Shown in pieces: positions 1 to 47,905 of a DNA stretch of 49,064 nucleotides. The notes beneath the pieces were generated by a model. That model saw only the letters and a program-made list of their open reading frames with translations, was not told where the DNA came from and did no database searches. The DNA is from a virus. The stretch lies in the IMG/VR virus record IMGVR_UViG_3300045988_163663; one strand, given 5' to 3'. Numbering within the stretch: position 1 is the stretch's first letter; the number at the start of each line of letters is the position of its first letter. Both the position numbers and the translations under genes were made by a program.

Positions 1-2
1 GC

Positions 3-257
3 GAACAAAATCAATTACTTACTCTACTTCTTATTAATACAATAAAAGAAAAACTTCCTGATACTAAAATTTATATTTGGACTGGGTATTACTATGAAGA
101 TTTAATTAAGCAAATTACTAATGGTAAGCTTCAAGAAATTCTTAAAAAAGCTGATGTATTAATTGACGGTCCATATATTCAGTCTCAAAGAGATATTACA
201 CTATCAATGAGAGGTAGTAAAAATCAAAATATTATAAACTTAAAGGAGATGAATTAA
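3..257 (+). CDS. nrdG: Anaerobic ribonucleotide reductase activating protein (NrdG-like radical SAM activase), C-terminal fragment; truncated by the window start
   Basis: Frame 3 is open from base 3 to TAA at 255-257. The C-terminal motif ...ADVLIDGPYIQSQRDITLSMRGSKNQNIIN matches NrdG C-termini (DGPF/Y ... RGSSNQRII). Confidence 0.5.
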   Translation, partial: EQNQLLTLLLINTIKEKLPDTKIYIWTGYYYEDLIKQITNGKLQEILKKADVLIDGPYIQSQRDITLSMRGSKNQNIINLKEMN

Positions 258-772
258 TGAGATACAGAGGAAAGATTGCCAATTTAGAAGAAGCAATATA
301 GAAAGAACCAAAAGTAGGAGATGTATTCTATAACACAACTGATACCCACAACTATGTCTGGTCCGGCACTGAATGGGGTGTATTAGCAGATGGTGTCGAT
401 TTTAAAATGAGCAATTATGAATTAAATAAATGTGTAATTGGCCAAATGAAAGAACTAACTCCAGAAGAAATAGATAAAAAATTAGAAGTTATTGATACCT
501 ATGTTCAAGAAAGTTTTAATAAGTATTTTATGCTTTTATGTAATGAATTAAATTATTATACAGTATTTGAAACTAATAGCTTGAGCAATGATAATCCTTA
601 TCTTAATATGACTTCTGCCGTTTATGATATTATTAAAGATTTAGGACAGATTAAAGACATTAATGATAGTGGTTCTGGGGCAGTTGAAATTTGGATTACA
701 AATAACGATGAAACTCATTGTTATCATTTATTCGATTATGATGCTGGCATTGTTCCAGTGATAGGGAGATAA
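257..772 (+). CDS. Hypothetical protein, 171 aa, with an in-frame TAG at 299-301
   Basis: ATG at 257 overlaps the nrdG stop (TAATG). Reading through TAG at 299 joins in frame to track ORF 407-772. Stop is TAA. Confidence 0.4.
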
Positions 773-774
773 TT

Positions 775-1035
775 ATGTTATTTACTTATTTTGATTTATT
801 TAATACAACACAAATTATTTATTACCAAGGTCCAAATGATAAAAAGCCTATTATGGTTTGCACTTGCCGTCTTGATAATCTTAGTGATACTTTAACTAAG
901 CTATCAGAACAATATAAAGATAGTGATATTCATCTTTATGGTAATCAAACTTATGGCGAAGGTCTTAAAGAAACTATTGAAAATTCTTTAATTACTAAGT
1001 ATAGTAATAATAATATTAAAGTTTATGTAAATTAA
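775..1035 (+). CDS. Hypothetical protein, 86 aa
   Basis: Intact ORF. GGGAG ribosome-binding site 7 nt upstream of the ATG. Stop is TAA. Confidence 0.4.
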   Translation: MLFTYFDLFNTTQIIYYQGPNDKKPIMVCTCRLDNLSDTLTKLSEQYKDSDIHLYGNQTYGEGLKETIENSLITKYSNNNIKVYVN

Positions 1036-1046
1036 TAGGAGAAAAT

Positions 1047-1322
1047 ATGTTTGAATATTTAATTAATACTACTGAAGTATATAGAGTAGACACAGAAAAA
1101 GAAGCAGCTGAGCTTATTAATAATGCTAAGTAGGATAGAGAATATGATTTAGCTAAATATTCTTCTACAAAGAAAGAACGTAAATAGAAGGGCGAGATTA
1201 TTGATGAATGGTATCAAGTAACCCTTGTAAAAAAATTTAATGATGAAAAAGAACCGACAGATCATATTTCACTTTGTTATACAACCAGAACTAATTTTGA
1301 CGGGGAGACTATAATTAACTAA
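1047..1322 (+). CDS. Hypothetical protein, ~91 aa, with two in-frame TAG codons (1131, 1185)
   Basis: AGGAG ribosome-binding site then ATG at 1047. The frame stays open through two TAGs until TAA at 1320-1322, which overlaps the dut ATG (TAATG). Confidence 0.4.
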
Positions 1323-1870
1323 TGAGTATTTATTTTGAAAAGGTAAGTAAATATAATAATTGGGATTTACCAATGCCAGAACGTAAGACTAAATATAGTG
1401 CTGGTTATGATTTTGCATCTGCTGAAGATGTTGTAATTCCTTCATATACCCATATTGTAGAAGTTTTTAAAAATGGGGCAGCTACTAACGATATTATTTC
1501 TTTGAATGATATGGCTAAAATTACTAAGGGACTTAATTTAAAACCTACTCTTATCCCTACTGGAATGAAGTGCCATATGGAAGATGGACAATTCCTTGAA
1601 CTATCTGTTCGTTCTTCTTTACCCTTAAAGCATTGGATTATTATGGCTAATAGTGTTGGCATCATTGATGCTGATTATTATAACAATCCTGATAATGAGG
1701 GTCATATTTATTTTCAATTAATTAATCTCTCACCTTTTGATATTGAAATTGCCAAGGGCGATATTATTGGTCAAGGGATTATTCGTAATTATCTTATTAC
1801 AGATGATGATAAAGCTAAAGGTACAAGAATTGGCGGATTTGGTTCAACCAGTAAGGACGTTAATAATTAA
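1322..1870 (+). CDS. dut: dUTP diphosphatase (dUTPase)
   Basis: 182-aa ORF with the conserved dUTPase motifs AGYDF, RSSLP, GIIDADY and C-terminal RIGGFGSTSK. No in-frame TAG. Stop is TAA. Confidence 0.85.
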   Translation: MSIYFEKVSKYNNWDLPMPERKTKYSAGYDFASAEDVVIPSYTHIVEVFKNGAATNDIISLNDMAKITKGLNLKPTLIPTGMKCHMEDGQFLELSVRSSLPLKHWIIMANSVGIIDADYYNNPDNEGHIYFQLINLSPFDIEIAKGDIIGQGIIRNYLITDDDKAKGTRIGGFGSTSKDVNN

Positions 1871-1912
1871 TCAATAAATAATAATCTCCTTCTATAATAG
1901 GAGGAGATTTAT

Positions 1913-2395
1913 ATGAATTTTTTATTTTTAGACTTATCCACAAAATCTACTGGATACGCTATATCAGATGACAAAGGTAAATTAATTACTTATGGATTAA
2001 TTACTGCATCTTCTTCTAATAATGTAAGCCGTATCCAAAAGATACAAAGTGGAATTATTGAATTAGTAAAATAGTATAATATAGAAAAATTAATAGCTGA
2101 AGATGTTCATCCAGAAGCTTATGGCTACTCAGATACAGCTCGTTTACTTATGTGGCTTCAAGGCTCTATAGTCCTTGGTGCTCATAGTGTAAATGATAAT
2201 ATAAATTCCAAAAGCATAGAATTTATGCAAGCTAGTGAATGGCGAAAAAATTTAGGAATTAAAACAGGTCGCGGTATTAAACGTGAAAACCTCAAGCCTC
2301 TTGATATAAAATATGTAAAAGATACATACGGTATTGAGGCCAATGATGATGTCTGCGATGCTATATGTTTATATACTGCATATTTTAAATCATAG
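1913..2395 (+). CDS. RuvC-family Holliday junction resolvase (phage type) with an in-frame TAG at 2072-2074
   Basis: AGGAGG ribosome-binding site and ATG at 1913. N-terminus MNFLFLDLSTKSTGYAI and C-terminus ...DDVCDAICLYTAYFKS are RuvC-like. The ORF is only complete if TAG at 2072 is translated. It ends at tandem TAG-TAG (2393-2398); if these are also read, it continues 6 codons to TGA at 2417-2419. Confidence 0.65.
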
Positions 2396-2505
2396 TAGGA
2401 TGAATTAAATTGGGAATGACGGGCAATTTTATACAATTATATAATTCTTTCTTTCATTTATAATATGAGAAAGAGCGACAAATTCATGTCGGGAGGATTA
2501 TATAA

Positions 2506-6118: not shown

Positions 6119-9016
6119 TTAATCTAAATAATCTGTAATATAAACATTTTGCCCAAAAACATAAGGAGAAGAATCTGGATATTTTTCACTTATGACTTCA
6201 ATAGATATATCATTCTTTAAGTTAAATTCATAAGTTACTTCAGCATATCCCCATAATCCTTCTGACGGAGCAACCTAACATTTAGCAGATTCTTTCATCA
6301 ACGTATTATTATAAAAAATTTTACTAGTTATTTCTCCTATTTCCGTTGTAGATTTATTTCTACTAAGTGTATGAATTGTTATTTTATCTCCTTCTTTAGC
6401 TGTAAATTTTGGAATATTTGTTTTTGAGATTCCATCAATAGATATTGAAGTATCTACAAGATTTTTTGTAGTAATTCCAATCCATTTATTCCAAACTAAA
6501 TTATTGTTTAAATATTGAGTATCTAAATACCAACTAGAATAAGCAGTTTTTTTACTAATTTCTTGCTAAGGATTCTATTGTATTGAAATAATAGAATCCT
6601 GGCTGTTACCTGAAACAGATATTAAATCCCAATTATTTTGAATATAAAGTCCCCAATAACTGCTAGTTAATGTAGGATTATAAAAATTAATAAGAATTAC
6701 TTCTCCACTGTCAGAATTAATTGTTAAATCAGGCAAATTAGCCCCAGCATTATCTCCAAAATTAATTATTAACTATGGAGTGCTACTACCTGCATTTTTT
6801 ATTGCTTCTTGATTTAATTTAGTTCCATTTAATATTTGTTTGATAATAAATTCTAATCCATCATTAACATGATCTACATAATATGTTTTTAAAATATTGT
6901 AATTAAAAATATAATCATTATTACCATTGCCCTCAGAACCTTCATAAACAATATTATTTGATAAATGTTCTACAGCAGTTATATTAATAATTTTTTTAGC
7001 TAATGGGATTCCAGGCAAACCAGTTAAAGTACCAATTTTTTCCCAATTATCAAATAAAAACTCCTAATCTTCTAATGATTGGACTGGATCTTTTTTATAC
7101 TAAAAAATATGTCCACGTGTAGAATCACTTAAATTATCTGTAATATTAATAAATAAATCATTTTTAGAAAGAATAGGACCAATATAACTCTCTTTATTAC
7201 CTATTACTTTTTCAATATTATTATTAATTGTATCTATAGAAACAGTTAATCCAGAATTTTTAGGAGTAAGGATATGAATAGGCAAAGGAGTTTCTAAATC
7301 GATTTGTTCCATATTTTTACTTATAGGTTTTATATTAGATACTTTATAAGTCTATTCATTTTTAACATTTATAGTTTTTATTGATATATCAGGATATTTA
7401 GGAATGGAAAAATTAAAAATTTCCTAATAAGTACCAATATTATCTTCTTCTAAAATACTACTTTCAACTACAATCTAATTTTTAATATAACTATTATCTT
7501 TATCTTTAATAAAAGAATCAACTAATTCTGTTTTAGCTAATGGAGCCGGTGCTGTAATAGCCCCTAAATAAATGCCAGTAATCTAAGAAGAAGTTATCTC
7601 ATATAAGCTATAAATTTTCCCAGTTGGCTCATTTATATAGAAATCAGCTTTATAGCCATTATTAGTTATATCATAAAAATGATCTCCTAATGTAGCATAT
7701 TCAGCTAATATTGATAAACAATAATTAGCTATACTACTATTTTCAAAATAATATACAGAACTAATGTCATCTTTTTTATTATTATTTATTAACTTTAATA
7801 AAATATTAAATAAAGAATATATTATTTGATCAACCTAAACCAAAGATCTAGGATACATATCATTAAATAAATAAAATAAATTCTATTGGCTACTTGGATT
7901 ATATTCTGAATCTATCCAGTACCATTCATATTCTAACTCATTTTTAATTTGCTATAATTTAAAATTATCAACTAAATAAGTATATAATTGCTAAGATAAT
8001 TTAGTTATTTTTAAATTATTTTGAGGATTAAATAAAACTCTTTCATCAGGCTAAGCATATATTGCATTTAAATTATTATTGAAAAAATGTTTATTATCAA
8101 TAATATTCCCATTTTCATTATATATTACTTTATCTTCTTTTAGGATATGTAATAAATAATACGAAATTCGTGATAGTATAGAAACCTAATTTTTCCGAAT
8201 TGTATATTTATAATCATAATTTTGATATCCATAAATTTTATAATTACCCATATTATGAAAATAAGATAATGGTCCTAATCCAAATAAAGAACCAGAAAAA
8301 AATGTTGGAGCTTTAGGCAAATCAAAAGTTAATTGAGGCCTAGTTAATGTTGCTGTCTTAATATTTCCATTTTTATCAAAATAAGTTCCTTCAGTTTTAA
8401 AATAAACATTTGGATCTTCCTAAGAGCCAACTATATTTTTATATACTTCTTCAATACGCTATCCACGTTGTAAATAAAATTTAATTTTAGGAGTATCAGG
8501 ATTGGTTAAATCTAAAGTAACATAAGGATCTCCATCTTCAATATCTATAGTCTAATGAAATACTTGAATACGAGGAGTAACGCCAGTTACGCAAGCAATT
8601 AAACGATATCCAAAACCAAAACATTCTTCACTTTCTAAATCAGATACTTCATGAAGAGATTCTCCATATTCTTCTTTATTATCTTCTTCTAAATTTAAGA
8701 AAATATAAATATTATTATCATTCTAAGGAAAATCTGGAGAAACTGTTAAATTTCTATCTACATAGATTTTCTACCACAATGAATTAGTATATGATTTTCC
8801 GCTATCTTTTAAATCTATCTAAAGATTAGTATTATAGTTGGAGGTTTCTTCATTCATATAAGATGGATCACCATAATTAATAAAAACATAATCTCCAACA
8901 TTCACAGGAGAAGTCCATCTTGCTTTTAAATCTCCAACCATGTCAATAGCACGATTGGCAAATATTCGTGTTATTTTAAAGTCTTGCCCTTTTTGTCCAC
9001 CATAAAAGCTATACAT
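6119..9016 (-). CDS. Tail fibre / receptor-binding-like protein, ~965 aa
   Basis: ATG at 9016 with an AAGGGGGAG ribosome-binding site. Track fragments 8819-9016, 7100-7312 and 6773-7018 share one frame and every fragment end is TAG. True stop is TAA at 6119-6121. Composition is Asn/Ser/Thr-rich and beta-rich. Confidence 0.5.
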
Positions 9017-9732: not shown

Positions 9733-12700
9733 TTATACTCTTGTTAAAGCTTCATTTGTTGTAATCGACATATTTCCATTATAAGTTAAAGGAAGAGTAT
9801 ATTGAGTTATAACAAATTCCCCTTGTATATTACTTTTTCTATCATTTATATAGATTAAATTATTAGGTTCTAAATAATATCTTGGCGCACAGTTAATAGT
9901 AACAGTTAAATTATAAATTAAATACTAATATAACATTTCTCTTATATAATCAAATGCCGTACTTCCTGTTCCGCTAGAACTAAATAATTTCATTTGCCCC
10001 GGTTTTAAAGCACAATAAGCCTAACCTTTTAATGTATAATCTTCTATCTTTTGAATTAAATCTGCTTCCCCAGTATTTTCAAAAAATATGATATCAGGCA
10101 CTTCTAATTTATATAAAAGACTCATATTAGTTTTAGTCAATGCTTTAGTACGCCGGCCTATTTTATTAACTGAATATCTAGATACTAACTAATCTACATC
10201 AATAAAATCTAACCAATATGTTATTAAGCTAGGATCAAGATAAATAGCAGGATTCCATCCAATCCAAGTATCAGGTATGATTTCTTCATTTTGATTTTCT
10301 TCAGAAGAATTTTTTGATTCAATCTAATCAATTTGATTCCGCCATTCTTCATGCCAAGTTTCATTCTAAGGATTAAATATTTGTTTACGCCACAAGTATT
10401 CACCATCTATTTTAGCTAATAATTCATCATCATAGTCTCCTTTTTGAGAACCATTTTCATTATTTAATAAAGCTTGTCTAAATAATTCTTCACGCCATTC
10501 ATTGCAAGGAGTACCAATTAAAGTAAAATAAAAATTATCTTCATAATCAAAAGGTGGTTCTTCAGGAGTATATGTAATAATTTTAATTTTATTATTATCA
10601 TTAATAGTAGAAAAATCAAGAATGTTAGAATTATAAGCTTTAGTAATTTCTTCAATAATTTCATTTAATGAATAATTACCATCATCACGTAAAATAAAAA
10701 TTTTCTTTATTATATCTTCCTAATCACCTAAAATTTTTAACTAATTTTTTTTACCATCTACTGGATCTAAAAATGGTAATAATAAATTACTTCCTCCTGA
10801 TGTATTTCCATTTGATGTATTGTTTTTATTGTTATTCTCTTCATTGGGCTTTAACGTAAAACCTGGATCTAAAACATCTAAGGGCATAATTCCATAATTT
10901 GGATCTCTAGGAGTAGGACCAGGTATATTATTATCTTCTGAATTGCCAGGTTTATTTGGTTTAGATGGATCATCTTTAGGAATTTCTTCTATATTTTTAT
11001 AACTATAAATTAATTCAATATCTGAAGTTAAATCATCTTTATTTGTTTTATAGTATTCTAATAATTTTTTAATTAAATCGTTATGTTCTTCTTCAGTAAT
11101 AACAATTTCATCATTCTTATTTTTTATTGCCGGATAATTATTAGGAAATACATAATTATATTCCGTTTTCTTTTTAGATTCATTATAACTAATTAATTTA
11201 TAACTAGCAACAATAGTATTATTTATGGAAATTAAATTATTAGAATCAATAAAATTAAAATCATAATCCTTATTTTCTTCATCAAAATTTATATCTTTAA
11301 TAATCTTAATATAATAATTAATTTTAATTGTATTTAAAAAATTTTCTATGTTTCTTAATGAAAGTTCTTCGGTTAATTCACAAATCTAAATCCACTAACC
11401 TTCACTATCATAATAACCTAAAATATTTTTATTATCTATATTTTTTATTATAGTTAAATAATATTCTTTAGATTCATTAATCGTTGTATTATTATTATTA
11501 TTATCAGACTTATCATTAGAAGAATTATTATTTTTATTTGCATTATTTTCTTGGTCTGCTGGTAACATAAAATCAGGATCTAATACTGTGGAACCTGGAT
11601 TTGGTACCATAAAACCTGGATCTAACTCTTTTGTATTAGATATTAGCATAATACCATAATTTTCTGAATCTCCAGTTCCTTGGCCTTTACGCCACCAAGA
11701 GGTAGGAATACCAAAACCCGGATCTAATGTATTATCATCTTTATAGCTATCATTTTTATTATTATTATTTTTATTAGAAGAATTATTATTACTTGGCCAA
11801 CTATCAGTAGCATCTTTTTTAGGATAAACACCAAGAGCTAAATGAGTAAAGTCAATAATATCAGTTAAATCTTCAAGATATTGAAATCCTATAATTTCTC
11901 CATCTAATAAAGTAATTTTATAATATCTTATCTAATTTAAAAATATTATTTTATAATATAAAATAAACTAATCACCAGTGTAAAAAGAATAATTCTTTAA
12001 AATATTTTCAATTATATCTTCTTTAATGTTAGATTCAATTACTTCATCCACCATTTCTTCATGATTAACAGAATAAATAATTTCTAAAGCTTTTTTATCA
12101 GGTGTCTAATTATAATTACTTTTTTTATACTCAAATAAATAAAAAGCATGGTCACCATTACCTCGAACTACATCCCACATATATTGATTAGCTAAATCAA
12201 TTTGAGGTTTTTCATCTATGGCTAAATGATACTATATAGTTTTAGTAACTCCATTACTATTAGTTTTATCGCCCCATACAATAAAATCATTTTTTATATT
12301 TTCATATTTAGGACTATTATAATAAGATAATGCATCTTTAGCATTTGCAAAAGTATAATAATATTTACTATCTGAAAAAGCTTTTATATAATAAGTATCA
12401 TTTATTTCTGTAATAGGAGTATAATAATAGTTTAAATAATTCTTTTTCTACTAAAATACAAAATGACCATCTAAATCATAAAAATATTCATAATTTCCTA
12501 AAGATTCAATAATTTTATCAAGGACAGAAGTTACTGTGTCTCCCGCAGAAAATACTAATTCTCCTGGATAAGTAAAATCTGTTTCTTGATATCCTACGTC
12601 TTGTCCATAAATAAATTTGTGCTATAAAAAATTTTCATCTTCAGGAGCGTTTTCACTAATTACAAAACTTTTATAATCTTTAGAAAACCATATAGGATTT

Positions 12701-16837: not shown

Positions 16838-16868
16838 AAAAAAGAATGATGGATAAAAATCCATCATT
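16838..16868 (-). terminator. Rho-independent terminator (minus-strand orientation)
   Basis: Hairpin gaatgatgga-taaaaa-tccatcattc, followed on the minus strand by a U9 run. It overlaps the TGA stop (16864-16866) of the upstream gene. Confidence 0.65.
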
Positions 16869-29638: not shown

Positions 29639-29685
29639 AAAATAGCTCCTTTCTCTCATTATAAATTTCTATATACAAAGAAAAA

Positions 29686-37016: not shown

Positions 37017-38153
37017 TTACGGCTTATCTTCATTACCGCCATCAATAGTATCATGAGAACCAGTAATTTGACCAGCATAGTCACGGACCTTACCAGTTAC
37101 ACCATCAAGATGCCAGGTCTTCATATCACCAAGAAGTTCAGTATCACAATAGCAGCAGATATTATTAGCTAACATAGCAATAACGCCAACCTTCTTATAA
37201 ACTTGAATTTCACGGCTACGGTCATAATTGGTGTATTCATCAACAATGGTATTGCCTTCCATAGCAACCTTTACAGGCTTACTATCAGCACCAGTAGGAA
37301 TAATCCAAGCATAGCCTGGGTCAATGACTTTCTTTTCATTGGTAGCATCTTCAAAGCCCTGCTCAAGAATAACAACTTTATAGCCCTTATAGGAAGCAAG
37401 ACGGCCAGTATTCCAAAGCTCATTTTTCATAGCTTCAGTATAACGCCAAGCATCCTTCGGAATCATACGAACAGCAAATTCATAAGTGCAATAAATAGTA
37501 GGAGTACCATAAGCAGAAGCAATCATAAGTAACTTATCAAAACCGGGTTCATCAAAACCATTAGCAACTAAACGGTTAGCAGGAGGTAACTGGTTAACAG
37601 AAGCCTTTAAAGCACCGGCAATTTCTTTATAGATAAGTTCATCCATACCTTCCATGACGATCTGGGTAACAACACCAAAATCGACACGGCCATCAAGGAA
37701 TTCCTCAAAGCCAATTTGAGCAGCTCCGCCGATAGCGCTTGTACGGACTTCAAAGCTTTCTTCAGTCTTACCAAGCTTGAATACTTCATAGATACCAGCT
37801 AGGCCGACACGAGTGATGAATTGCTTTGCACGAGTATTGTTGCTGAACTTTCTACGGAAAATAGGCTTGTCACCCTGTTTAAACGTCTTAACTTCAGCAA
37901 ACTGATTATATTGCTCTTCAACTTTCTTAGGAAGAACTTCATCAATAGTTTCCTCAATCATTGAGAAAATAAGGTTCTTATTATCACGATATAAAGAATA
38001 AGTTCCAGCAAGTTCATTTAATTCTCTGCGGAGAGTTTCATTAAGAGCATCATAAGAAAGGCTTTCGCCATTAAAGCTGTAAGCAGTAGGAGTAGAAGGA
38101 TCAGCCTTAGCGACAGTCTTCATTAATTGAACAAGATTTTTTCTATCTAACAT
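37017..38153 (-). CDS. Major capsid protein (HK97-fold type), 378 aa
   Basis: AAAGGAGAG ribosome-binding site then ATG. Intact ORF with no TAG and a TAA stop. It lies downstream of the scaffold and upstream of a strong terminator. The product is globular and beta-rich. Confidence 0.6.
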   Translation of the reverse strand: MLDRKNLVQLMKTVAKADPSTPTAYSFNGESLSYDALNETLRRELNELAGTYSLYRDNKNLIFSMIEETIDEVLPKKVEEQYNQFAEVKTFKQGDKPIFRRKFSNNTRAKQFITRVGLAGIYEVFKLGKTEESFEVRTSAIGGAAQIGFEEFLDGRVDFGVVTQIVMEGMDELIYKEIAGALKASVNQLPPANRLVANGFDEPGFDKLLMIASAYGTPTIYCTYEFAVRMIPKDAWRYTEAMKNELWNTGRLASYKGYKVVILEQGFEDATNEKKVIDPGYAWIIPTGADSKPVKVAMEGNTIVDEYTNYDRSREIQVYKKVGVIAMLANNICCYCDTELLGDMKTWHLDGVTGKVRDYAGQITGSHDTIDGGNEDKP

Positions 38154-38971: not shown

Positions 38972-40537
38972 TTATTCCATAGTTTTCGCAACATCCTATA
39001 CTGCCTTAATCCAAGCAGGAATACTATCGTCATTTACATCATTATTAATATTATATGTAAGTGGGTCATTTTCTTTCTTTTCATTAGTATCGAAATTGAC
39101 CTTATTGCGAACACAGATAATAGAAAGCTTTGCTTCAATATCATCTAATGAATAAGTATCAATATTAGCAACAACATCTTTCTTATCATCATCAGATAAC
39201 ATATAGAAACTATTAATCATTTCTTGTTTCTTTTCTCTTTCAGCCTCAGTCTTAAACTGAGTTAAAGAAGCAAGTTCTTGTTCGAGTTGTGTTTGCTTTT
39301 CAACTAATTCATTATATTTAGTTTCAAGCGCGGTATACTCGTCTTTTAATAAACCATATTCAACTACATCTTCCAAAGAGTACTTAGCTTTCTTTTTCTT
39401 TTTTTTCTCTTCATCATCCTCAGTTGGTTCTTCTTCTTCATCAGAAGTATCAGTTGGTTTATTTTCGGGAGTGTCCTTCTTTTCATCATCTTTTGGCTGA
39501 TCTTTAGAAGGATCTTCCTTATTATTATCATTATTCTCTTTATTGTCTTTATCTTTTTCGTCCTTTTTTTTCTTTGCAAATTCTGCAACTTTTTCAGGAT
39601 CGAATTGAGGATTATCAGAAACAGAATAATCAGTTAATTCAGAAACTTCACCAGGAGTGAAAGTATCATTCTCCATAGAAAAATCTAAACGAACGAACTT
39701 ATCATCTTCCTTGACAATAGCAAATAAATTACCATTGTCTTCGCAAACTTCTTCAATCATTGCATTACCTGCTCCGAAACCCTTAATGTAAGAATAAAGA
39801 GAAGTCCAAATGGAATCACCAATCTCCACACTATATCTTGTGAACACTTTTGTTCCTCCTTTACCTTCTAATAATTCTTTTAAATCTTTCATCATAGAGA
39901 ATAATTGCTCATTAAATTTATCACTAAATGAGAAATGCATCGTAGGTGCAGTAATATTAGCTCCTTCGAAGCAAGGTTCACAATCTTCTCCAAGAATACA
40001 AAGTTTCTTAATTATTGCTTCATTTATAATAAAAAATTCGGGCATTCCATTCTTATCTTTCGACCAATACGCATTAATTTTTTCATCATCTAATTCCATA
40101 GATTGATTATTACCTTTTTCAATAATACGTTTACTTTCTGGATAGATATCTGTCCAGATATAGCCTTCAGTCATTAAATATTCATGCTCGTTTTTTCCAT
40201 CATCTAAAAATTTCTAAAACCATACTTTAGCTCCCAAGTCTACAAAACCATAAGGAACAGTAGTATCTTTAATATCAAATTTACCATTAGAAATATCAAT
40301 AACACGATTATGTTCTTCATAATCTCCATTGGCTTCATTAAAATAACCAACGATAGGACTACCTGGTAAACTTTGCGCTAAATCTTTAGCAACTTCTTTT
40401 GTTATAACACTTCTATTGCGATTTGGTTTATCACCAACATAACAAACTTTAATCTAACATTTAGAAATTAAAGGATTGATTTTAGTGATATTAATAAACT
40501 CAACAGGAGTATCTAACTTAACACTTGTATGTCTCAC
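38972..40537 (-). CDS. Scaffolding protein (acidic coiled coil) with an N-terminal extension, ~520 aa
   Basis: AGGAGG ribosome-binding site and a GTG start at 40537. In-frame TAGs at 40471-40473 and 40214-40216 join the upstream region to track ORF 38996-40174. The C-terminal half is highly acidic and lysine-rich. It ends at TAG 38996 or TAA 38972. Confidence 0.5.
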
Positions 40538-40550
40538 TATAAATCCTCCT

Positions 40551-42241
40551 TATTTACCAGCTGCTTGACGATTAGCGATTGTTTTTTCACTTTTTTCATC
40601 ATTAGCTTTTTCTGGTCGGCCACTCTCTTTTGTTTCTGTTTTTACTGTAGTAGTAGTATTTCCACTTGTTTTATTTTGAGAAGTGTTAGAACTATTCTAA
40701 TCTTTTTTACCCAAAATATCTTCACCATTTAATGTAGAACTCATAAGAGGCGGTATCATAACTTCGCTTAAATGTAGAACTTCATTTTCAAAATGAGCCG
40801 TATTAAGAATAAAACTCTATGATTGTCCAAGAGCAATCTAAGGTAACATTTTAGAGAAACCAATCTGAGTTTGTTCTTTATACATTTTAGATAAATCTTT
40901 ATAATTATATTGTGTAGTTTCTAACATATAGAACTTATAATTATATTTTTTCTAAACATTCAGGACTGATAATATTCTATCAAAAAATATGTTGAATTGC
41001 AAAATTAAATTGCGCATAGTAGATTCATCATCTAAAATAGATTTTTCCAACGCAATATTGCCGTCTGTATTAAACAAATTGCGCGAAACGCCAAATGCAT
41101 TATATACAGTTCGTTCAACACGCTCTAATTCATCTGTGGTAGCAGAAGTATTTTTATCAGAAGTATCAATAGCATCTACATCTGCAAAAGTAGTTAATAC
41201 ATCAACACCTACAGCTCTACGCAACATTTCAACAGCATTATTATGAATATCACGAGCTTCATCAATATCAAAAATCAAATCACCATTTTTATCAAGTGGT
41301 AATTTCTAAACTAAAATCTTTAATAATTTTTGCATCTGCTTGCGGCGGTCTAAATCTTGTGCGGCATCTAAATCCAAAATTGCTGGAATAGCATTTACAA
41401 ATAATGGAATATCATTAGTACCATTTAAAGCAAACTTAATAGTGCTTTGTGGATCTAACAAATACCAACTACCAGTATTATCACCAGCTACATCAGGTAA
41501 AAGTTTACCAGCCTTATAGAGACGATAACCTATTGTAAATTCATCAGGGAATAATTTTAATACTCTATTACGGTAATTAGTATCCACAAAAGTATCAAAG
41601 TATCTCATATCAAATTCAATAGCAGGTAAATTACCTACTGAATATCTTGAACGACAATACTCAATAGGAAGTTGCTATAAAATTAAGCCAGTACTTGAGG
41701 GAACAATATAGGCATAATAAGCTCCACATTTGATAACTTCAAGAGCCATATCGCCACAAATTTTCTTAATATAAGAATTATCTAAATAATTTAAAATTCG
41801 CCAGAAATCTTTTACTGCTTTTGTTTCATTAATATCTTTAACAGCAGAGCCGTCAGTATTATTAGACTAAATAGCAATAGCCCAATCATAACGATACATA
41901 TTCGCAAAATAATTACATACTCTTTGATAAATACCACTTACTCTAAAAAAGAAGCGTGATATTCTTCGCAATTCTTGAATATCATTACGAATTAAAGCAT
42001 CCATAACCATGGGCTTTGTATAAATACGTTCACGGCTATACTTTTCATTGCGGCGACCGTAAGTGTCCCATCTGAAAGATCCAAGATTTAAGACAGCATC
42101 GTCTAATGTCTTAACACCAACCTTAATCTTCTTATATTCATTTGGGCCAACTGCAGAATACTCACGTACTCCTCCAGTTATGTCAAAACCTTTTTTATGT
42201 ATCTATTCATTTCTGGTTAATTCTTCCTTTTCTAATTCCAT
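40551..42241 (-). CDS. Portal protein, ~563 aa
   Basis: GAAGGTGA ribosome-binding site then ATG at 42241. Track fragments 41306-41608 and 40952-41278 share the frame. About 9 in-frame TAGs. TAA stop at 40551-40553. It sits immediately downstream of the terminase. Confidence 0.55.
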
Positions 42242-42703: not shown

Positions 42704-44455
42704 TTAATTCATAAACATCCAATCAGCAGCCCGGAATTTTTTCTTCTTTTTATCTTCTTCTATTTTTTTTATATAATATAATCCATATTCTAATGCAGAA
42801 AATTTATCTTTTTTAATACTTTTATTAGCTTGTTTTAAAATAATATTTAAACCTTCATTCTCTTCGCGCAAATTCATAATCTCTTCGCGTAATGAGGTAG
42901 TTAAACTAAATGGTCTTAAATAATCAGATCGTGCTTCTGTGGTCATATTCTAGCCCACTTTAGTAGTTAATAGTTTCTATTTAGCAGTTCGTTCATCAAT
43001 TAAAAATTTAATCTTACCAGAATTTAATACTGACTAAGTAATACTATGTGCTTCAGTATTAATTGGTGCATTAGCTTTCATTAAGTATAAAACATCTAAT
43101 TCTGTACTATTGGTTTTATATTTTTTATATTCTTGAACTGCATCATCCTGAGTTCCACCATAAACTCCAAAATCAGGAATTACTTCAGAAGTTTCAGGAT
43201 TAATCTATGGCTTAACCATAAAATCTACTAAACCAACACCAAGTCCATTAGCATCTATTACAATTCTGCGAGCTTTATATTTATAATATAATTTTTTAAG
43301 TTTAATAGCCTAATCTTCAAAATGAGTATCATTCATAGTATAAATATTAACTAAACTTTTAATCGGTTCACCATGCGGTTGCGGCGTTACTTTAAATACG
43401 CAAACAACAGTATCGCATCCTTTACGGCCTACGTCAACACTTAATATATAATAAGATAATTTACTTGAACGGCCAGAAGCTTCATACTCAGGCTAATTCA
43501 GTATTCTATTCCTATTAAATATTTCTGCATTAAAAAAAGCATCTTCAACAGTACCAGACCAAATTGATTCATATTCACGTTCAAAAGAAGCCTCATTATA
43601 AGTTCCTTCATTTTTCTGGTCAGTAATAAATGTTTTCTGCTGTAATCCGACAGCAACAGGAGTTCGCCAAGTTCCGCCTAATACCATACATCTATCAGGC
43701 TATGTAATCATACGAACCAATAAACCAATTAATCTATCATAAGGATAAGTATTTTTATAACCAGCAGTAGTAATATAAATCTATGATTTATTTACCGCTT
43801 CTTCTTCATGAGTTGTACCATCCTTAGCTCTACGAGGAATAGCCATAACTGGTATAATAACTTCGCGCAAAATCTAATCATCAATACCTACACATTCTTC
43901 CATTAGACCACCATGACGACGCTGACCACGAGTGCTTTCTCTCGCAGCTAAATTATCAAGGACAGAACCATTCTTAAATACATAACGTACTTTATCTTTA
44001 CTCTCTTGGCTCTTACCTCGGCCCCAATCAATTTCACGTTTAAAACTTGGTATTAAATCACAAATTTCATTAACTTTATCATGTAGAATACTTGCGCCTT
44101 GTTCCTTACCACCAGAAGTAACAAATAAATGAACACCAGGATAAAGAATACATCTAACCATTAATGCCATAACTGATAAGAATGATTTAGAATAAGCACG
44201 AGGGAAAACTGCATAAACATATTGATAGCGCATTACACATCTTAAAAAAACACGCTAATAGAAGAAAAATTTAAATTCTCCTTCTTTCTATTCTGTACGT
44301 GTTCCTCGTACTAAAAAATCAACAAATAAATCTGGATATTCGCGCCAAAAGGCAGTATATTTACGAATGACTGGCATTACAGCATTAATACGTTCTTCAG
44401 AAAGACCTATCTTTTTTCGACTTGTAGATAGGTCAAGTAAATCTTGTAACGCCAT
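42704..44455 (-). CDS. terL: Terminase large subunit, ~583 aa
   Basis: ATG at 44455 overlaps the upstream stop (TAATG). Track fragments 43874-44233, 43493-43687 and 42704-42946 share one frame and are separated only by TAG. ATPase-type and nuclease-type motifs are present (SFEREYESIW; YYILSVDVGRKG...VIDANGLGVGLVD). TAA stop at 42704. Confidence 0.65.
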
Positions 44456-45669
44456 TAATCTTCCCTATCAGAGAAAGCATCTATATCTAACTCTGTTTCA
44501 TTATCTAAAAATTCACTAAAGTCTTCAATATCTTTATCTTCTAAAGTTTTTTCAATGTCTTCAATAGACATATCAACATCATCAACAATTGTATCTTCGA
44601 CGTTTTCTTTAGCCTATTCATCTTCTTTAGCGTTTTGTTTTAATGCCTAATCAATCATATTGCCAAGATTAGTTTCTCGTTCAATTAAAGTACGAGTGTA
44701 TTTTTGCATATCTTTAATTGTAAAATCTACTTTATCATTTGGAGTATCAATGTAATATCTTTCGATATAGCCTTGTTTCTCACACATTTCTATTAATTCA
44801 CCAACAGAATCAATGAAATCGCCAGACTCTTCTTTATTCTAGGCAGCAGTAAATTTGCCCGATTTCATTAAAGAATCATACATTTTAATCATCTTTTGGG
44901 CGCCGTCTACATCACCTATATCTAATAACTAATTAGATTTTAATGATGTCTTACAGGCAAGTTTTAATGTATCAATATGGCCTGCGGACTAAATATCGTA
45001 AGACTACATCATTTCATTAAATAATTGCTCTAAGCGCACCCATTCATCAGGACTATAACCTTTTCCCCATTTTAAATAAAGATATCGTTTATCTTCGTCT
45101 GTTAGCTCTGCACCTAAATCAGGAACATCAAAATCTAATTTATCTTTAAAATAATCTTCCCCAGAATTCCCAAAATCTAATGGAGGAGGTGCGGGAGGAG
45201 GCGGCTCTTTTAATTCTTCTGATGGCAAAGCAAATGAAGCACGTTGAATAGCTGTAGTAATATCTTGAATGTCATATCCCTATTGCTTCATTGTTTCTTC
45301 TATTTTTTTATTTTGTAAGTCTTGCAAGAATTGACTATCTTTCCATCTATAATCTTTCCATTGATTTAATTTCATTGCAGAGAGATAGCGACCTAATATT
45401 GTCATTCCAGTGACTTTTGTCCTATCCTTCGCAAATTTACCCATTAACTAATTCCACTATTCAGGAATGTAAGGAACATCACATTCTTGCAATATCCATA
45501 GATAAGTATCCGGATTCCAATTGTCTACATGCATTGTTATACATTTTTTACATTTTGGTAATTTACCATCATTAGGATATTTATCTAAATTATTAGATGT
45601 ATAAAACTAAGTTCCATCCATAGTTTTATTACATTTTTCACAGTAATATTGTTTACCTTCGCTGGACAA
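44456..45669 (-). CDS. Terminase small subunit-like protein with an N-terminal C4 zinc ribbon, ~404 aa
   Basis: AAAGGAG ribosome-binding site and a TTG start at 45669. N-terminal CEKC...CKKC motif. It includes track ORF 45004-45228 and a proline-rich linker. About 8 in-frame TAGs. TAA stop at 44456-44458. Confidence 0.4.
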
Positions 45670-45687
45670 TCAATATTTCTCCTTTCT

Positions 45688-46760
45688 TTAGGATTTCATT
45701 TTTTCTTTACGAGAACTATTTCGGCATTTTTTGCATATACTATAAAATCCATCTTTACTTGTTTTATTATAGGAAAAATATTTATTGTGAGCCAATTTAA
45801 TTTGTCCACATCTACTGCATTTTTTATACTTACCTTTTTCTTGAGTTGTATAATACCATTCTAAATATTTATCAACAGCTTTATCAGCAATAAGCTTTGG
45901 TATTTTATTGCGGAATAAACTTGATATATATTCTAAACTGTGGGTAATATTAAATTCTTCTTGTAAAATTTTTTGAATCTCTATATTTTGTAATCCATCA
46001 ATTTTACATTCTACAATACGCATTAACATAGGATAATCAGCTAAGGCTTCATCACAAATATTTTCAAAATCATAAATAAGATACCAAGTATCATCTTCAA
46101 AACGATCCCAACTATCTTCTTTTAATCGAGAATAGTTACATAAGATACAAGAGCAAATTTCAGGATTCATTAATGAAATTCCTTCTGGAATTGGATATCC
46201 ATCATCATCAAACATTTTTACATCTTCATCTAATTTAATTTTATATTTAGATCGTGTAAGCTTTACTGGTACTATTGGTTTTCGATAAGCATTTTTAATA
46301 ACATATTGGTCTTTGCGCATTTCTATTAATGCTTTTTTTATAGTAAAAGCATCTTTACCACTCACTACTTTCATTTTTGCTTCCCAAGTTGTAATAGCGT
46401 CTTTTAATTGTTTTAAGCTAGGAATTTCTTCTAAATCTTTTTTTGTAATTGTAACTTTTGGCTAAAATATCATATTTTTATCACTATTAATTAAATTATA
46501 TATACCATCTTCACCATTCTCTAACTGGGAAACAAGTCCTTCGAAAGAAGTTTCACGTTTATTAACTGTCATTAATCTATTATCAGTTAATATTTTCTTT
46601 TCTTTTTTTTCTTGTTTCTCCATACATAGAATTAGATAATCTGCGAGGATTTCTAAATACTTTTCATTAGGATTTGGATTTTCCTCTAAAATTTTTTTTA
46701 CTAATTCATTTCGTTCTTCAGGAGTTTCAAGAGTATAATCTAATTTTATCAAGATTAATA
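45688..46760 (-). CDS. Regulator-like protein with a C-terminal zinc ribbon, ~357 aa
   Basis: GGAGGT ribosome-binding site and a TTG start at ~46760. Track ORFs 46462-46809 and 45688-46374 are joined in frame through TAG 46462. C-terminal motif KCSRCGQ...CKKC. TAA stop at 45688. Confidence 0.4.
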
Positions 46761-46780
46761 CCTCCAATCCTTCTAAAAAA

Positions 46781-46809: not shown

Positions 46810-46864
46810 CCATGGCCAAAAATTTTTATGGTATTTAGTAAAAAAATTATGTAAAATGTAAAAT

Positions 46865-46893
46865 TGACAATTATAAAAATTTTTTATATAATA
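46865..46893 (+). promoter_or_regulatory. Consensus promoter, divergent from the one at 46781-46809
   Basis: TTGACA-17 bp-TATAAT on the plus strand, upstream of the 46922 gene. Confidence 0.55.
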
Positions 46894-46921
46894 TTTATAT
46901 AAAATTAAAGGAGATAATTTT

Positions 46922-47077
46922 ATGAGAAAACCTCGTGGTATTTTAGGTAGTATGGCTTCTAAAGCTAAACGTAGAGCAATTAATAGTGCAACTAGAGCTG
47001 TTTATCAACTTATGTGGGGCGAAAACCCTAAACAGCAGGGAGCCTATAATCCTATTAAGGAACGTAAGAAAAAGTAA
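46922..47077 (+). CDS. Small basic protein, 51 aa
   Basis: AAAGGAG ribosome-binding site then ATG. Product MRKPRGILGSMASKAKRRAINSATRAVYQLMWGENPKQQGAYNPIKERKKK. TAA stop. Confidence 0.35.
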   Translation: MRKPRGILGSMASKAKRRAINSATRAVYQLMWGENPKQQGAYNPIKERKKK

Positions 47078-47112
47078 ATATATTATATTTAAAAATTGAA
47101 GGAAGTGATTTA

Positions 47113-47550
47113 ATGAAGTTTGTCCATGGGCTTCTTTTAGGTACTGGGGCGGCATTCGGTTTAGGATGTGCGGCCAGATTTATTTATGATAAAATTATTG
47201 AAGCAAAGCTTTATAAAGATTATACTAAAGCCCTTGAAGATTTTATGAATTTTAAAAGTGATAAAAAATATATTGAATATAATAAAGGGCTGGAAGAAAA
47301 ATACATTGGACCTGGTGTAGTTCATGTTATTAAAAATAAAAAAGATTTAATGGCAATTGATTTATCTAAATATGAAGAAGAAGGAGATCCAATTGGTATT
47401 ACTCTTGGTTCTAAAATTGTAGATAAAGAAGACCAATATATTATACCTGAAGTAGAAGTTTATAAATTTAAAAATGGATATGTCAATTATCGCTTTCATC
47501 AAGAACGAGGAGTAATTGACCCTGATGAAGGTATTATTCCTTTTGATTAA
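47113..47550 (+). CDS. Secreted/membrane-anchored protein, 145 aa
   Basis: GAAGGAAG ribosome-binding site. Hydrophobic N-terminus LLLGTGAAFGLGCAARF. TAA stop. Confidence 0.45.
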   Translation: MKFVHGLLLGTGAAFGLGCAARFIYDKIIEAKLYKDYTKALEDFMNFKSDKKYIEYNKGLEEKYIGPGVVHVIKNKKDLMAIDLSKYEEEGDPIGITLGSKIVDKEDQYIIPEVEVYKFKNGYVNYRFHQERGVIDPDEGIIPFD

Positions 47551-47598
47551 TTCGTGTTAAGATTTTGTTAAGAAAAATTTTGACAAAGAACAAAAAAT

Positions 47599-47627
47599 TT
47601 TGTAAAATAAATTATAAAAAATTTATG
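47599..47627 (+). promoter_or_regulatory. Promoter upstream of the AbrB-like gene
   Basis: TTGACA-17 bp-TAAAAT. Confidence 0.4.
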
Positions 47628-47672
47628 GGATGGCTCATACTCTCCCAATTAAAAAGAAAGGAGTGAGTTAAA

Positions 47673-47873
47673 ATGCTGAAAACAGCTTATACAAGAAAAC
47701 TCGACACAGTTGGACGTTTAATGATTCCTTCTAAACTTCGTGAAGAATTGCATATGGTAAATGGTCATAATTATGAATTTTACATTGATGAAGTAGATGG
47801 TAAGACTTTTTTATGTATTGAATGTCCTGAAGCCAGTGATGCCGTAGCTCTTGCGAAAGAAACATTGGAATAG
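47673..47873 (+). CDS. AbrB/MazE/SpoVT-family (swapped-hairpin) DNA-binding protein
   Basis: AAAGGAG ribosome-binding site. Motif TRKLDTVGRLMIPSKLREEL...EFYIDE matches the AbrB N-terminal domain. It ends at TAG 47871. If that TAG is read, it continues 10 codons to TAA at 47901-47903, just before the terminator. Confidence 0.6.
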   Translation: MLKTAYTRKLDTVGRLMIPSKLREELHMVNGHNYEFYIDEVDGKTFLCIECPEASDAVALAKETLE

Positions 47874-47905
47874 AATGGATATCGAGTAATTAAGGAATAA
47901 AATTA

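What the first reader, a model, noticed from the sequence alone, without database searches (positions are those of the whole stretch)
1..47903. Genome-wide amber (TAG) stop-codon reassignment in a phage
Conserved genes are contiguous only if TAG is translated: RuvC-like resolvase (TAG at 2072), large terminase (TAGs at 43874, 43493, 42950 and others), portal (~9 TAGs), scaffold (40214, 40471) and the 3143-aa tape measure. Their standard-code ORF fragments share a single frame and are separated exclusively by TAG. Codon-by-codon checks over more than 6 kb (gene at 9733-13332, gene at 16864-20160) found no TAA/TGA but about one TAG per 60 codons. True stops are TAA/TGA and coincide with ribosome-binding sites and terminators of the next genes. 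TAG occurs in early-type plus-strand genes as well as late genes, so recoding is not confined to late genes.
Basis: seen in the sequence. Interest (0 to 1): 0.9.

Follow-up and report, generated by a model that had tools for sequence, protein, structure and literature searches.

The report
Gut phage reads TAG as glutamine
This window is the structural-gene block of a very common ~189-kb human-gut phage that translates the stop codon TAG as glutamine. This kind of recoding is real here, but it is already well described in gut phages.

Summary
With TAG read as sense, the window resolves into about 38 credible genes (94% coding). They hold 319 in-frame TAG and no in-frame TAA or TGA, and every gene ends in TAA or TGA. 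Under the standard code the longest open frame is 405 aa.

PHROGs profiles confirm TerL, portal, tape measure, RuvC and dUTPase. Codon alignments show that TAG means glutamine: in 41 TerL columns holding TAG, CAA is the partner codon in 35.

The window is 100% identical to part of a 188,486-bp ENA contig. It belongs to a large SPβ-like clade related to phAss-1 ("Caudoviricetes code 15 clade"), and nearly all members are TAG-recoded.

The window has no tRNA. All seven 92–96%-identical relatives that cover the site carry a tRNA(CUA) in a second tRNA cluster. I could not fetch that region on the window's own contig.

TAG use as a sense codon is stage-biased rather than uniform:
- 0 of 64 Gln codons in the first 10 kb of early genes;
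- 11–26% in replication genes;
- 45% in late genes.

The major capsid gene stays TAG-free across the clade.

Verdict: a real feature, and a new member of a known kind (code 15 phages). Interest is modest.

The parts
1322..1870 (+). dUTPase gene, 182 aa, no TAG
   Evidence: Pfam PF00692 at 7.5e-12 and phrog_135 at 3e-29. TAG count.
1913..2419 (+). RuvC-like Holliday junction resolvase, 168 aa, 3 in-frame TAG (codons 54, 161 and 162; the first is at 2072-2074)
   Evidence: phrog_827 at 3.6e-15 over residues 3-162, spanning the TAG at codon 54. TAG positions.
6119..9016 (-). 965-aa late-operon gene of unknown function (position suggests a tail or baseplate protein), 22 TAG
   Evidence: Single frame free of TAA/TGA. 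TAG makes up 51% of its Gln codons. No PHROG match.
9733..13332 (-). tail protein, 1,199 aa, 18 TAG
   Evidence: phrog_32343 at 4.5e-40 and phrog_1887 'tail protein' at 2e-11. No TAA/TGA in frame.
13329..16757 (-). 1,142-aa structural protein, 26 TAG
   Evidence: phrog_30026 at 1e-10. Codon counts.
16864..20160 (-). 1,098-aa late-operon gene of unknown function (position suggests a structural protein), 24 TAG
   Evidence: No PHROG match.
20207..29659 (-). tail tape measure protein, 3,150 aa, 110 TAG
   Evidence: 19 PHROG tape-measure families match the first 700 aa, the best at 2e-42. TAG is 52% of its Gln codons. The phAss-1 tape measure is 3,149 aa (PMC10607447).
31925..33016 (-). virion structural protein, 363 aa (candidate major tail protein, by inference), only 2 TAG
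   Evidence: phrog_2729 at 1.6e-53. TAG share 0.14.
37017..38153 (-). major capsid protein (YonB family), 378 aa, no TAG
   Evidence: phrog_4088 at 2.4e-58. Precomputed Pfam PF27364 YonB. 0-1 TAG in 16 clade members.
38972..40537 (-). scaffold-like protein (YonD_N), 521 aa from GTG 40537 with the ribosome-binding site AAGGAGG, 3 TAG (including 40454-40456 and 40214-40216)
   Evidence: Start and TAG positions. PF27290 YonD_N is precomputed for the identical gene on the source contig.
40550..42241 (-). portal protein, 563 aa, 8 TAG
   Evidence: phrog_2739 at 1.1e-74 over residues 83-560.
42704..44455 (-). large terminase subunit, 583 aa, 11 TAG
   Evidence: phrog_2 at 1e-20 across residues 43-566. 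It also matches two 'half' families, phrog_15503 and phrog_24618. tblastn gives 47% identity to the Geobacillus E3 TerL and 45% to Enterococcus phages. The TAGs align with Q.
44455..45621 (-). YonG_N-like protein, 388 aa, 10 TAG
   Evidence: phrog_3314 at 2.3e-52. PF27269 YonG_N is precomputed.
45688..46623 (-). sigma-factor-like protein at the head of the late operon, 311 aa, 1 TAG
   Evidence: phrog_5767 'sigma factor' at 7e-47. TAG share 0.10.
47113..48999 (+). start of the + strand block of small genes that I infer to be early (g39; an AbrB/antitoxin-like g40; g42). There is 1 TAG in 354 codons, at codon 67 of 75 in g40, so g40 would still be functional if TAG were read as stop.
   Evidence: phrog_4681 match for g40. 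The block continues on the same contig with 0 TAG in 19 genes.

Best explanation
The window is the late (virion) gene block, plus the ends of two + strand modules, of a ~189-kb SPβ-like siphovirus of the human gut. In this phage the amber codon TAG has been reassigned from stop to glutamine (genetic code 15), and TAA and TGA remain the stops.

Most likely mechanism:
1. The phage infects a standard-code host, probably a member of the Bacillota.
2. It first expresses a long block of small genes that contain no TAG.
3. It then supplies its own amber-suppressor tRNA (anticodon CUA, with Gln-like identity features) from a tRNA cluster elsewhere in the genome.
4. That tRNA lets ribosomes read through the roughly 320 TAG codons in the replication and, above all, the structural genes.

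Shown: TAG is sense. It stands for Gln. The early block on the same contig is TAG-free. Close relatives carry tRNA(CUA).

Inferred: the window's own genome carries that tRNA. The host uses the standard code. The gradient of TAG use acts as a timer or throttle on expression.
For: Coding evidence. There are 319 in-frame TAG and no TAA/TGA in 38 genes, against thousands of TAA/TGA in the off-frames.

Gene identities across the TAGs: (TerL, portal, tape measure, RuvC).

TAG means Gln.
- TerL TAG positions align with Q in the standard-code phages E3 and VRE9_4.
- In a 38-sequence codon alignment, 41 columns hold TAG. The partner codon is CAA in 35 and CAG in 21. The majority residue is Q in 18 of 41 columns, against a 3% background.
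- In a same-species contig, MetK has TAG at the Q of the motif GHPDKxCDQxSD; that this Q is invariant in MetK is from my own knowledge.
- TAG supplies 43% of all Gln codons in the window.

Lineage.
- The window is 100% identical to ENA ERZ28621461 scaffold_6, 188,486 bp.
- 76 TerL loci in IMG/VR were found; of the 60 examined, nearly all have 1-14 in-frame TAG and none has TAA/TGA.
- The relative phAss-1 is filed by NCBI under 'Caudoviricetes code 15 clade' and has three tRNA-Sup-CTA genes (PMC10607447).

Suppressor. tRNA(CUA) is present in 7 of 7 relatives (92-96% nucleotide identity) that cover the site, next to tRNA-Gln(UUG). All have discriminator G73, and two of the three sequence types have a mismatched 1:72 pair.

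Stage bias. The TAG share of Gln codons is 0/64 in the first early 10 kb, 11-26% in replication genes and 45% in late genes.

Published model and proteomic proof of code 15 in other gut phages: bioRxiv 10.1101/2021.08.26.457843 and PMC9523058.
Against: - No tRNA of any kind lies in the window or within 10 kb either side on the same contig.
- The tRNA(CUA) was seen only in close relatives. The corresponding part of the window's own contig could not be fetched.
- The first tRNA array of the same species has no CUA tRNA, but it has a tRNA with anticodon UUA.
- The host and its genetic code are not identified.
- No release-factor gene was looked for.
- There are no proteomic or expression data for this phage.
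- Some TAG-containing genes lie upstream of the suppressor cluster in the + strand gene order, so a simple 'tRNA first, TAG genes later' order is not established.
Confidence: 0.92

Rival explanations
1. The in-frame TAGs are sequencing or assembly errors, or the element is a decaying prophage full of nonsense mutations.
For: None found. Fragmented genes under the standard code are what such a case would look like superficially.
Against: - Only TAG interrupts the frames: 319 TAG against 0 TAA/TGA in about 15,000 codons, while the off-frames carry thousands of TAA/TGA.
- The sequence is identical in independent assemblies.
- The TAGs are conserved and alternate with CAA/CAG across about 60 relatives.
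- The capsid protein's exact sequence is indexed in 627 blocks of the assembly collection.
Confidence: 0.01
2. TAG is translated, but as another amino acid: pyrrolysine, or Lys, Glu, Tyr, Trp, Leu or Ser through a different suppressor.
For: - ARAGORN labels CUA tRNAs 'tRNA-Pyl' by default.
- Some TAG columns in TerL hold E, K or S as the majority residue.
- The tRNA(UUA) has A73 and G1-C72, which is not Gln-like.
Against: - Q is the majority residue in 18 of 41 TAG columns, against 2 for K and 5 for E, although K and E are 2.5-3 times commoner than Q in the background.
- The commonest partner codon is CAA, two mutations away from TAG, so mutational proximity does not explain the pattern.
- TAG sits at the Q of the MetK motif GHPDKxCDQxSD.
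- No pyl genes were seen in any Pfam-annotated gene list.
- About 2 TAG per 100 codons is far above any known use of pyrrolysine (my own knowledge).
Confidence: 0.03
3. The host bacterium itself reads TAG as glutamine. The phage simply matches its host, and there is no code switch during infection.
For: The host is unknown. The window and 10 kb either side encode no suppressor. TAG is never used as a stop, even in the early genes.
Against: - The first 10 kb of early genes avoid TAG completely (0 of 64 Gln codons), against 45% in late genes. A matched host code gives no reason for this.
- Close relatives carry their own tRNA(CUA).
- I know of no bacterium described with TAG = Gln (my own knowledge).
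Confidence: 0.04
4. In the window's own strain, TAG is decoded not by a CUA tRNA but by the phage's tRNA with the ochre-type anticodon UUA, reading UAG by U-G wobble.
For: A well-formed 74-nt tRNA with the loop A-U-UUA-A-U and an encoded CCA end is conserved in same-species contigs. It shows a compensatory change in the anticodon stem. The CUA tRNA has not been seen on the window's own contig.
Against: - A UUA anticodon pairs best with UAA, yet TAA ends 34 of 38 window genes and is never in frame.
- Every relative that covers the second tRNA cluster has a CUA tRNA.
- Standard ARAGORN settings do not call the UUA tRNA.
Confidence: 0.05

Closest known systems
Genetic code 15 (TAG to Gln) recoded gut Caudoviricetes: crAss-like, Lak and the 'gemstone' clades of Borges et al. 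(bioRxiv 10.1101/2021.08.26.457843). Code 15 use was confirmed by proteomics in Peters et al. 2022 (PMC9523058).
   Same: - In-frame TAG in structural, lysis and some replication genes.
- TAG aligns with Gln.
- Low G+C and a strong preference for TAA as stop.
- Early genes compatible with the standard code.
- A phage-encoded tRNA(CUA) in the lineage.
- Recoded modules spread over a large genome, as described for the Jade, Sapphire, Agate and Lak clades.
   Different: - The structural module is SPβ-like (YonB, YonD, YonG and a YonF-type TerL), not crAss or Lak.
- TAG supplies nearly half of all Gln codons in late genes.
- Membership of a named clade could not be tested.
phAss-1 and the proposed genus Phassvirus, with the wider monophyletic group of Babkin et al. 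2023 (PMC10607447; GenBank OQ749652)
   Same: - From the human gut, with siphovirus-type genes and TAG read as Gln.
- A tape measure of about 3,150 aa.
- TerL homologous at 41.7% identity.
- NrdD/NrdG, Pol III alpha and a large tRNA set that includes suppressor tRNAs.
- A Bacillota host is predicted.
   Different: - Genome of about 189 kb against 136 kb.
- No DNA-level match: megablast of window 30000-49064 against the phage collection found nothing.
- The suppressor tRNAs are not next to NrdD, as they are in phAss-1.
- It is therefore not a member of the genus Phassvirus. At most it belongs to the same broad group.
Standard-code relatives with the same packaging and head module: Bacillus phage SPβ (yon genes), Geobacillus virus E3 and Enterococcus phages EF1 and VRE9_4
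   Same: TerL is 45-47% identical. The Pfam families YonB, YonD_N and YonG_N match the capsid, scaffold-like and neighbouring proteins.
   Different: Their records annotate an uninterrupted TerL under the standard code. They served here as the reference for reading TAG as Q.
E. coli nonsense suppressors supE (tRNA-Gln with anticodon CUA) and supB (tRNA-Gln with anticodon UUA). This comparison is from my own knowledge.
   Same: A tRNA with a CUA or UUA anticodon inserts Gln at a stop codon in competition with a release factor.
   Different: Here the suppressor is a normal part of a viral gene set, and TAG is a major sense codon rather than a rare read-through event.

Membership tests
Code 15 (TAG to Gln) recoded phage | Conserved genes are intact only if TAG is read through, and the merged frames hold no TAA or TGA | tested here: met
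   Full-length PHROG matches span the TAGs.
Code 15 (TAG to Gln) recoded phage | TAG positions correspond to glutamine in homologs | tested here: met
   The MetK motif in a same-species contig.
Code 15 (TAG to Gln) recoded phage | A phage-encoded suppressor tRNA with anticodon CUA | tested here: inconclusive
   Absent from the window and from 10 kb either side. Present in 7 of 7 relatives at 92-96% identity that cover the site. That part of the window's own contig could not be fetched.
Code 15 (TAG to Gln) recoded phage | A subset of genes, the early ones, is free of in-frame TAG and can be translated under the host's standard code | tested here: met
   0 TAG in 19 genes (0 of 64 Gln codons) immediately right of the window on the same contig.
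Code 15 (TAG to Gln) recoded phage | Accessory factors that some members carry (RF2, aminoacyl-tRNA synthetase) | not tested
   None appears among the precomputed Pfam labels of the fetched loci. No dedicated search was made, and about 10% of the genome was seen only in relatives.
Code 15 (TAG to Gln) recoded phage | Peptides with Gln at TAG positions | not testable with these tools
   Needs metaproteomics, as in PMC9523058.
Proposed genus Phassvirus (phAss-1) | More than about 70% nucleotide similarity and shared gene order with phAss-1, genome of about 133-138 kb | tested here: not met
   No megablast match for the window stretch searched (30000-49064). TerL is only 41.7% identical. The genome is about 189 kb. 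The suppressor tRNAs sit elsewhere.
SPβ-like head and packaging module | Capsid, scaffold-like and adjacent proteins of the YonB, YonD and YonG families, with a YonF-type TerL | tested here: met
   Precomputed Pfam PF27364, PF27290 and PF27269 on identical genes. TerL tblastn hits include 'putative protein YonF'.
Pyrrolysine decoding of TAG | A pylTSBCD gene set, with rare and context-dependent TAG use | tested here: not met
   2.4 TAG per 100 codons in late genes, interchanging with CAA/CAG. No Pyl genes appear in the annotated loci.
'Sapphire' clade of Borges et al. | Placement in their terminase tree or vContact cluster | not testable with these tools
No sequences were available for comparison.

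The most novel reading that the evidence does not exclude
In this lineage TAG may work as a graded throttle on expression, not just an on/off late-gene switch. Selection keeps TAG out of the most abundantly made virion proteins across the whole clade: the capsid cluster has a 5% TAG share and the candidate major tail protein 14%. TAG fills about half of the Gln codons in low-copy tail, portal and terminase genes. The suppressor supply is itself in flux: three unrelated tRNA(CUA) genes occupy one site in near-identical genomes, and the phage also carries an ochre-type tRNA(UUA) although TAA is its main stop.
Probability: 0.25. Interest if true: 0.5.

Novelty: new member of a known kind. Interest (0 to 1): 0.3.

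Why it matters
Practical consequence. Annotated with the standard bacterial code, this window breaks into short meaningless ORFs (longest 405 aa). Terminase, portal, the tape measure and most tail genes are then missed or split. PHROGs already contains families that look like such halves: phrog_15503 and phrog_24618 match the two halves of TerL. With code 15 the window is 94% coding.

Prevalence. The phage is very widespread. The exact capsid protein sequence is indexed in 627 blocks of the public assembly collection. Correct decoding therefore matters for gut virome surveys.

Biology. The window adds a large, well-sampled SPβ-like clade in which genome position, gene class and TAG density can be compared across dozens of genomes. 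That makes it a good system for asking how a code switch is timed and how suppressor tRNAs turn over.

The phenomenon itself is already established and would not surprise a specialist.

Tried and rejected
- TGA-sense and TAA-sense codes. TGA gives no gain. TAA only inflates random frames.
- DNA-level relatives among GenBank phages. There are none at megablast level for window 30000-49064.
- tRNA and Rfam scans of the window plus about 80 kb of the same species. Nothing was found.
- Expecting the suppressor next to NrdD, as in phAss-1. It is not there.
- Walking along the genome with exact DNA patterns. The loci returned are too short. I walked instead with protein queries, including chimeric two-protein queries. 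This used all 8 viral-collection scans and the one metagenome scan.
- A search pattern built from the suppressor's anticodon arm. I dropped this because the three phAss-1 suppressors do not share an arm.
- Assigning the identity of the UUA tRNA by similarity to tRNA-Gln, tRNA-Lys or tRNA-Glu. All comparisons give 50-65% identity, which is uninformative.
- Reaching the window's own contig at the suppressor site through proteins P0003, P0121, P0137 and P0193. These landed on other samples of the same population.
- Passing TAG-containing DNA references to the protein tools.
- No PHROG match for the 965-aa, 1,098-aa and 439-aa late proteins.

Full report
**1. The observation**

The window is 49,064 bp with 29.9% G+C. 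Under the standard code, stop-to-stop frames of at least 100 aa total 6,916 aa, and the longest is 405 aa. If TAG is treated as sense they total 18,351 aa, and one frame reaches 3,177 aa. Making TGA sense gives almost no gain.

A simple TAG-sense gene call (first ATG to TAA/TGA, overlaps removed) gives 42 ORFs covering 94% of the window, with 322 in-frame TAG. Four of these ORFs are spurious overlaps. In the other 38 genes the coding frame holds 319 TAG and no TAA or TGA. The two off-frames of the same genes hold 738 and 2,351 TAA+TGA.

TAGs are spread evenly along the genes. True stops are TAA in 34 genes and TGA in 4. Thirty of 38 starts have a Shine-Dalgarno-like motif.

The one cited at 40471 is at 40454-40456.

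**2. What the genes are**

With Q at TAG positions, PHROG profiles match across the TAGs:
- large terminase (42704-44455);
- portal (40550-42241, 1e-74);
- tape measure (20207-29659, 19 tape-measure families);
- RuvC-type resolvase (1913-2419);
- dUTPase;
- a sigma-factor-like protein (45688-46623);
- a tail protein (9733-13332);
- a virion structural protein (31925-33016).

Pfam labels precomputed for the identical genes on the source contig name the capsid protein YonB, the scaffold-like protein YonD_N and its neighbour YonG_N. This is an SPβ-like head module.

The scaffold-like gene starts at GTG 40537, behind the ribosome-binding site AAGGAGG. It does not start at the first ATG.

**3. Which amino acid**

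In TerL, 7 of the window's 11 TAG positions align with Q in at least one of the standard-code phages Geobacillus E3 and Enterococcus VRE9_4.

I aligned TerL codons from 38 sequences (34 IMG/VR clade members, the window, a 12-kb GenBank relative and the two standard-code phages). Forty-one columns hold at least one TAG. Other sequences have CAA in 35 of those columns and CAG in 21. Q is the majority residue in 18 of 41 columns, against a background Q frequency of 3%. K and E are much commoner in the background but lead in only 2 and 5 columns. CAA differs from TAG at two positions, so mutational proximity does not explain the pattern.

In a same-species contig, MetK carries TAG at the Q of the motif GHPDKxCDQxSD. 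That this Q is invariant in MetK is from my own knowledge.

TAG supplies 322 of 743 Gln codons in the window, or 43%.

**4. Where the window comes from**

Looking up two TAG-free window proteins by exact sequence located them on ENA contigs of 188.5-189.5 kb from Peruvian gut metagenomes. The window is 100% identical to ERZ28621461 scaffold_6.

The contigs open at different points, which suggests a complete, circularly permuted or terminally redundant genome of about 189 kb. This is an inference.

That collection's gene caller already reports full-length products for these contigs. It has therefore already applied a TAG-sense code.

IMG/VR holds 76 TerL loci at 51-98% identity, on contigs of up to about 197 kb. 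Of the 60 I examined, nearly all have 1-14 in-frame TAG in TerL and none has TAA/TGA.

The exact capsid sequence is indexed in 627 blocks of the assembly collection.

Among GenBank phages, megablast of window 30000-49064 finds nothing. TerL is 62% identical to an unannotated 12-kb faecal contig. It is 45-47% identical to E3 and to Enterococcus phages, and 41.7% to phAss-1.

NCBI files phAss-1 under "Caudoviricetes code 15 clade". Babkin et al. (PMC10607447) describe it as a 136-kb TAG-to-Gln phage. It has a 3,149-aa tape measure and three tRNA-Sup-CTA genes, and it sits in a wider group in which only some members are recoded.

**5. The decoding machinery**

The window has no tRNA and no Rfam family. 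Neither do the 10 kb on either side.

In phAss-1, two CUA tRNAs sit just upstream of NrdD. The homologous spot in this phage is a 92-nt gap with no tRNA.

I walked along a same-species IMG/VR contig (96% identical to the window) with protein-anchored fetches. A first tRNA array lies about 55-60 kb to the right of the window. It has 9-12 ordinary tRNAs and no CUA anticodon. A relaxed ARAGORN run and Rfam add a tRNA with anticodon UUA there.

A second cluster lies upstream of an 863-aa gene. It reads Thr, Pro, Gln(UUG), Tyr, CUA, Leu(UAA), Gly. All seven relatives that cover the site contain a tRNA(CUA). Those compared are 92-95% identical in nucleotide sequence to the same-species contigs. One of them is a 189,138-bp contig.

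Three unrelated CUA sequences occupy that site. All fold as cloverleaves with G73 and CCA, and two have a mismatched 1:72 pair. From my own knowledge of GlnRS identity elements, these features fit a Gln identity.

I could not fetch this region on the window's own contig. For this exact strain the suppressor is therefore inferred.

**6. Distribution of TAG**

The share of Gln codons written as TAG varies along the genome:

| Region | TAG share of Gln codons |
|---|---|
| Window - strand late genes | 45% |
| Window left-hand + strand genes (dUTPase, RuvC and neighbours) | 21% |
| Window right-hand + strand genes | 10% |
| Next 10 kb of small + strand genes, same contig | 0 of 64 |
| Further into that block | 6-14% |
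| Replication genes | 11-26% |

The RecJ-like gene has 14 TAG, whereas Pol III alpha (1,315 aa) has none. TAG never appears as a terminator in these genes.

This is the pattern that Borges et al. describe for recoded gut phages: early genes compatible with the standard code, replication genes variable, and structural and lysis genes recoded (10.1101/2021.08.26.457843).

One feature I did not find mentioned in that paper (the word 'capsid' does not occur in its text) is that the capsid cluster (36350-40174) is nearly TAG-free. Its TAG share is 5% against 47% in the other late genes (Fisher p = 7e-8). The capsid gene has 0-1 TAG in 16 relatives, down to 62% identity, while TerL and portal keep 1-14.

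This cluster also has a higher G+C (36%). Selection against TAG in abundant proteins and a separate origin for the module both remain possible.

**7. Rivals**

- Sequencing error or pseudogenes: excluded by the TAG-only pattern and by conservation.
- Another amino acid, including pyrrolysine: excluded for practical purposes by the codon alignments.
- A host that itself reads TAG as Gln: unlikely, given the TAG-free early block and the phage-borne suppressor, but the host is unknown.
- Decoding by the UUA tRNA alone: unlikely, because TAA is the main stop.

**8. Verdict**

It is an instance of a well-documented phenomenon, genetic code 15 in gut Caudoviricetes, in a lineage whose relatives have been described.

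It is not a member of the genus Phassvirus. It may belong to the Sapphire clade of Borges et al., but that could not be tested.

Novelty: a new member of a known kind. Interest is modest. The side observations are listed separately.

Noticed in passing
L302 12111-12258 (same-species IMG/VR contig 3300045988_152007); also in L303, L191 and L314; intact allele at L313 2796-2870: A tRNA-Ile(UAU) gene is split between anticodon position 36 and position 37 by a 76-nt insert. The insert is itself a complete tRNA-shaped gene: ARAGORN calls it tRNA-Arg(GCG), and it has its own acceptor stem, discriminator and CCA. A closely related genome has the uninterrupted tRNA-Ile. So a nested tRNA is present in some genomes of this population and absent in another.
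   Followed up: partly
L302 15828-15901; identical copies in L303, L314, L316, L317 and L318; variants in L315, L319 and L325: A conserved 74-nt tRNA has the ochre-type anticodon UUA (loop A-U-UUA-A-U) and an encoded CCA end. Variants carry a compensatory A-U to G-C change in the anticodon stem. TAA is nevertheless the phage's main stop codon. ARAGORN's default settings miss this tRNA; Rfam scores it at 48.5 bits.
   Followed up: partly
L394 9270-9344, L386 5666-5739, L395 8295-8369: Three unrelated tRNA(CUA) sequences occupy the same site in genomes that are otherwise 92-96% identical. One sits beside a GIY-YIG endonuclease gene. This suggests that the suppressor tRNA has been replaced repeatedly.
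   Followed up: partly
L394 7798-8391 and 9543-9655: A full-length ROOL RNA (RF03087, 324.6 bits) and a RAGATH-33 RNA (132.8 bits) lie inside the second tRNA cluster, next to the suppressor tRNA.
   Followed up: no
window 36350-40174 (capsid cluster) and 31925-33016: The capsid, its neighbours and a virion structural protein (candidate major tail protein) almost avoid TAG (5% and 14% of Gln codons, against 47% in other late genes). The capsid gene stays TAG-free across 16 diverged relatives. The capsid cluster also has a higher G+C (about 36%) and uses more CAG.
   Followed up: partly
L097 16445-18263, - strand: A small opposite-strand cassette lies inside the early region. Its genes have 9-10 TAG each and no CAA or CAG at all, so every Gln codon there is TAG.
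   Followed up: no
window 38972-40537: The scaffold-like (YonD_N) gene starts at GTG 40537 with the ribosome-binding site AAGGAGG, 121 codons upstream of the ATG used by the public gene call (400 aa). The extra stretch holds two more TAGs.
   Followed up: yes
window 47673-47900: The AbrB/antitoxin-like early gene has its only TAG at codon 67 of 75, beyond the matched domain. It would give a functional protein whether TAG is read as stop or as Gln.
   Followed up: no
L012 4981-8110 (left flank, same contig as the window) compared with L011: In the window's strain the anaerobic ribonucleotide reductase gene nrdD is split by an HNH/NUMOD4 homing-endonuclease gene. In a 98.9%-identical strain it is intact at 754 aa.
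   Followed up: no
L313 9398-19205; L394 10001-14737; L309 5880-7651: The + strand part of the genome, outside the window, holds further groups of genes that carry TAG:
- a run of fibre-like proteins with Mtd_N-type N-termini;
- several radical-SAM/SPASM genes;
- an SLH-domain protein and a vault-shoulder-like protein;
- a candidate CHAP-type endolysin (my reading of its sequence, not a profile match) with a possible holin.
Virion and lysis functions are therefore not confined to the window's late operon.
   Followed up: no
L391 and L392 (contig ends): Two independent contigs of about 189 kb end within 0.6-5.3 kb upstream of the 863-aa gene, inside or beside the second tRNA cluster. This may mark a genome terminus or a spot where assemblies break.
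   Followed up: no
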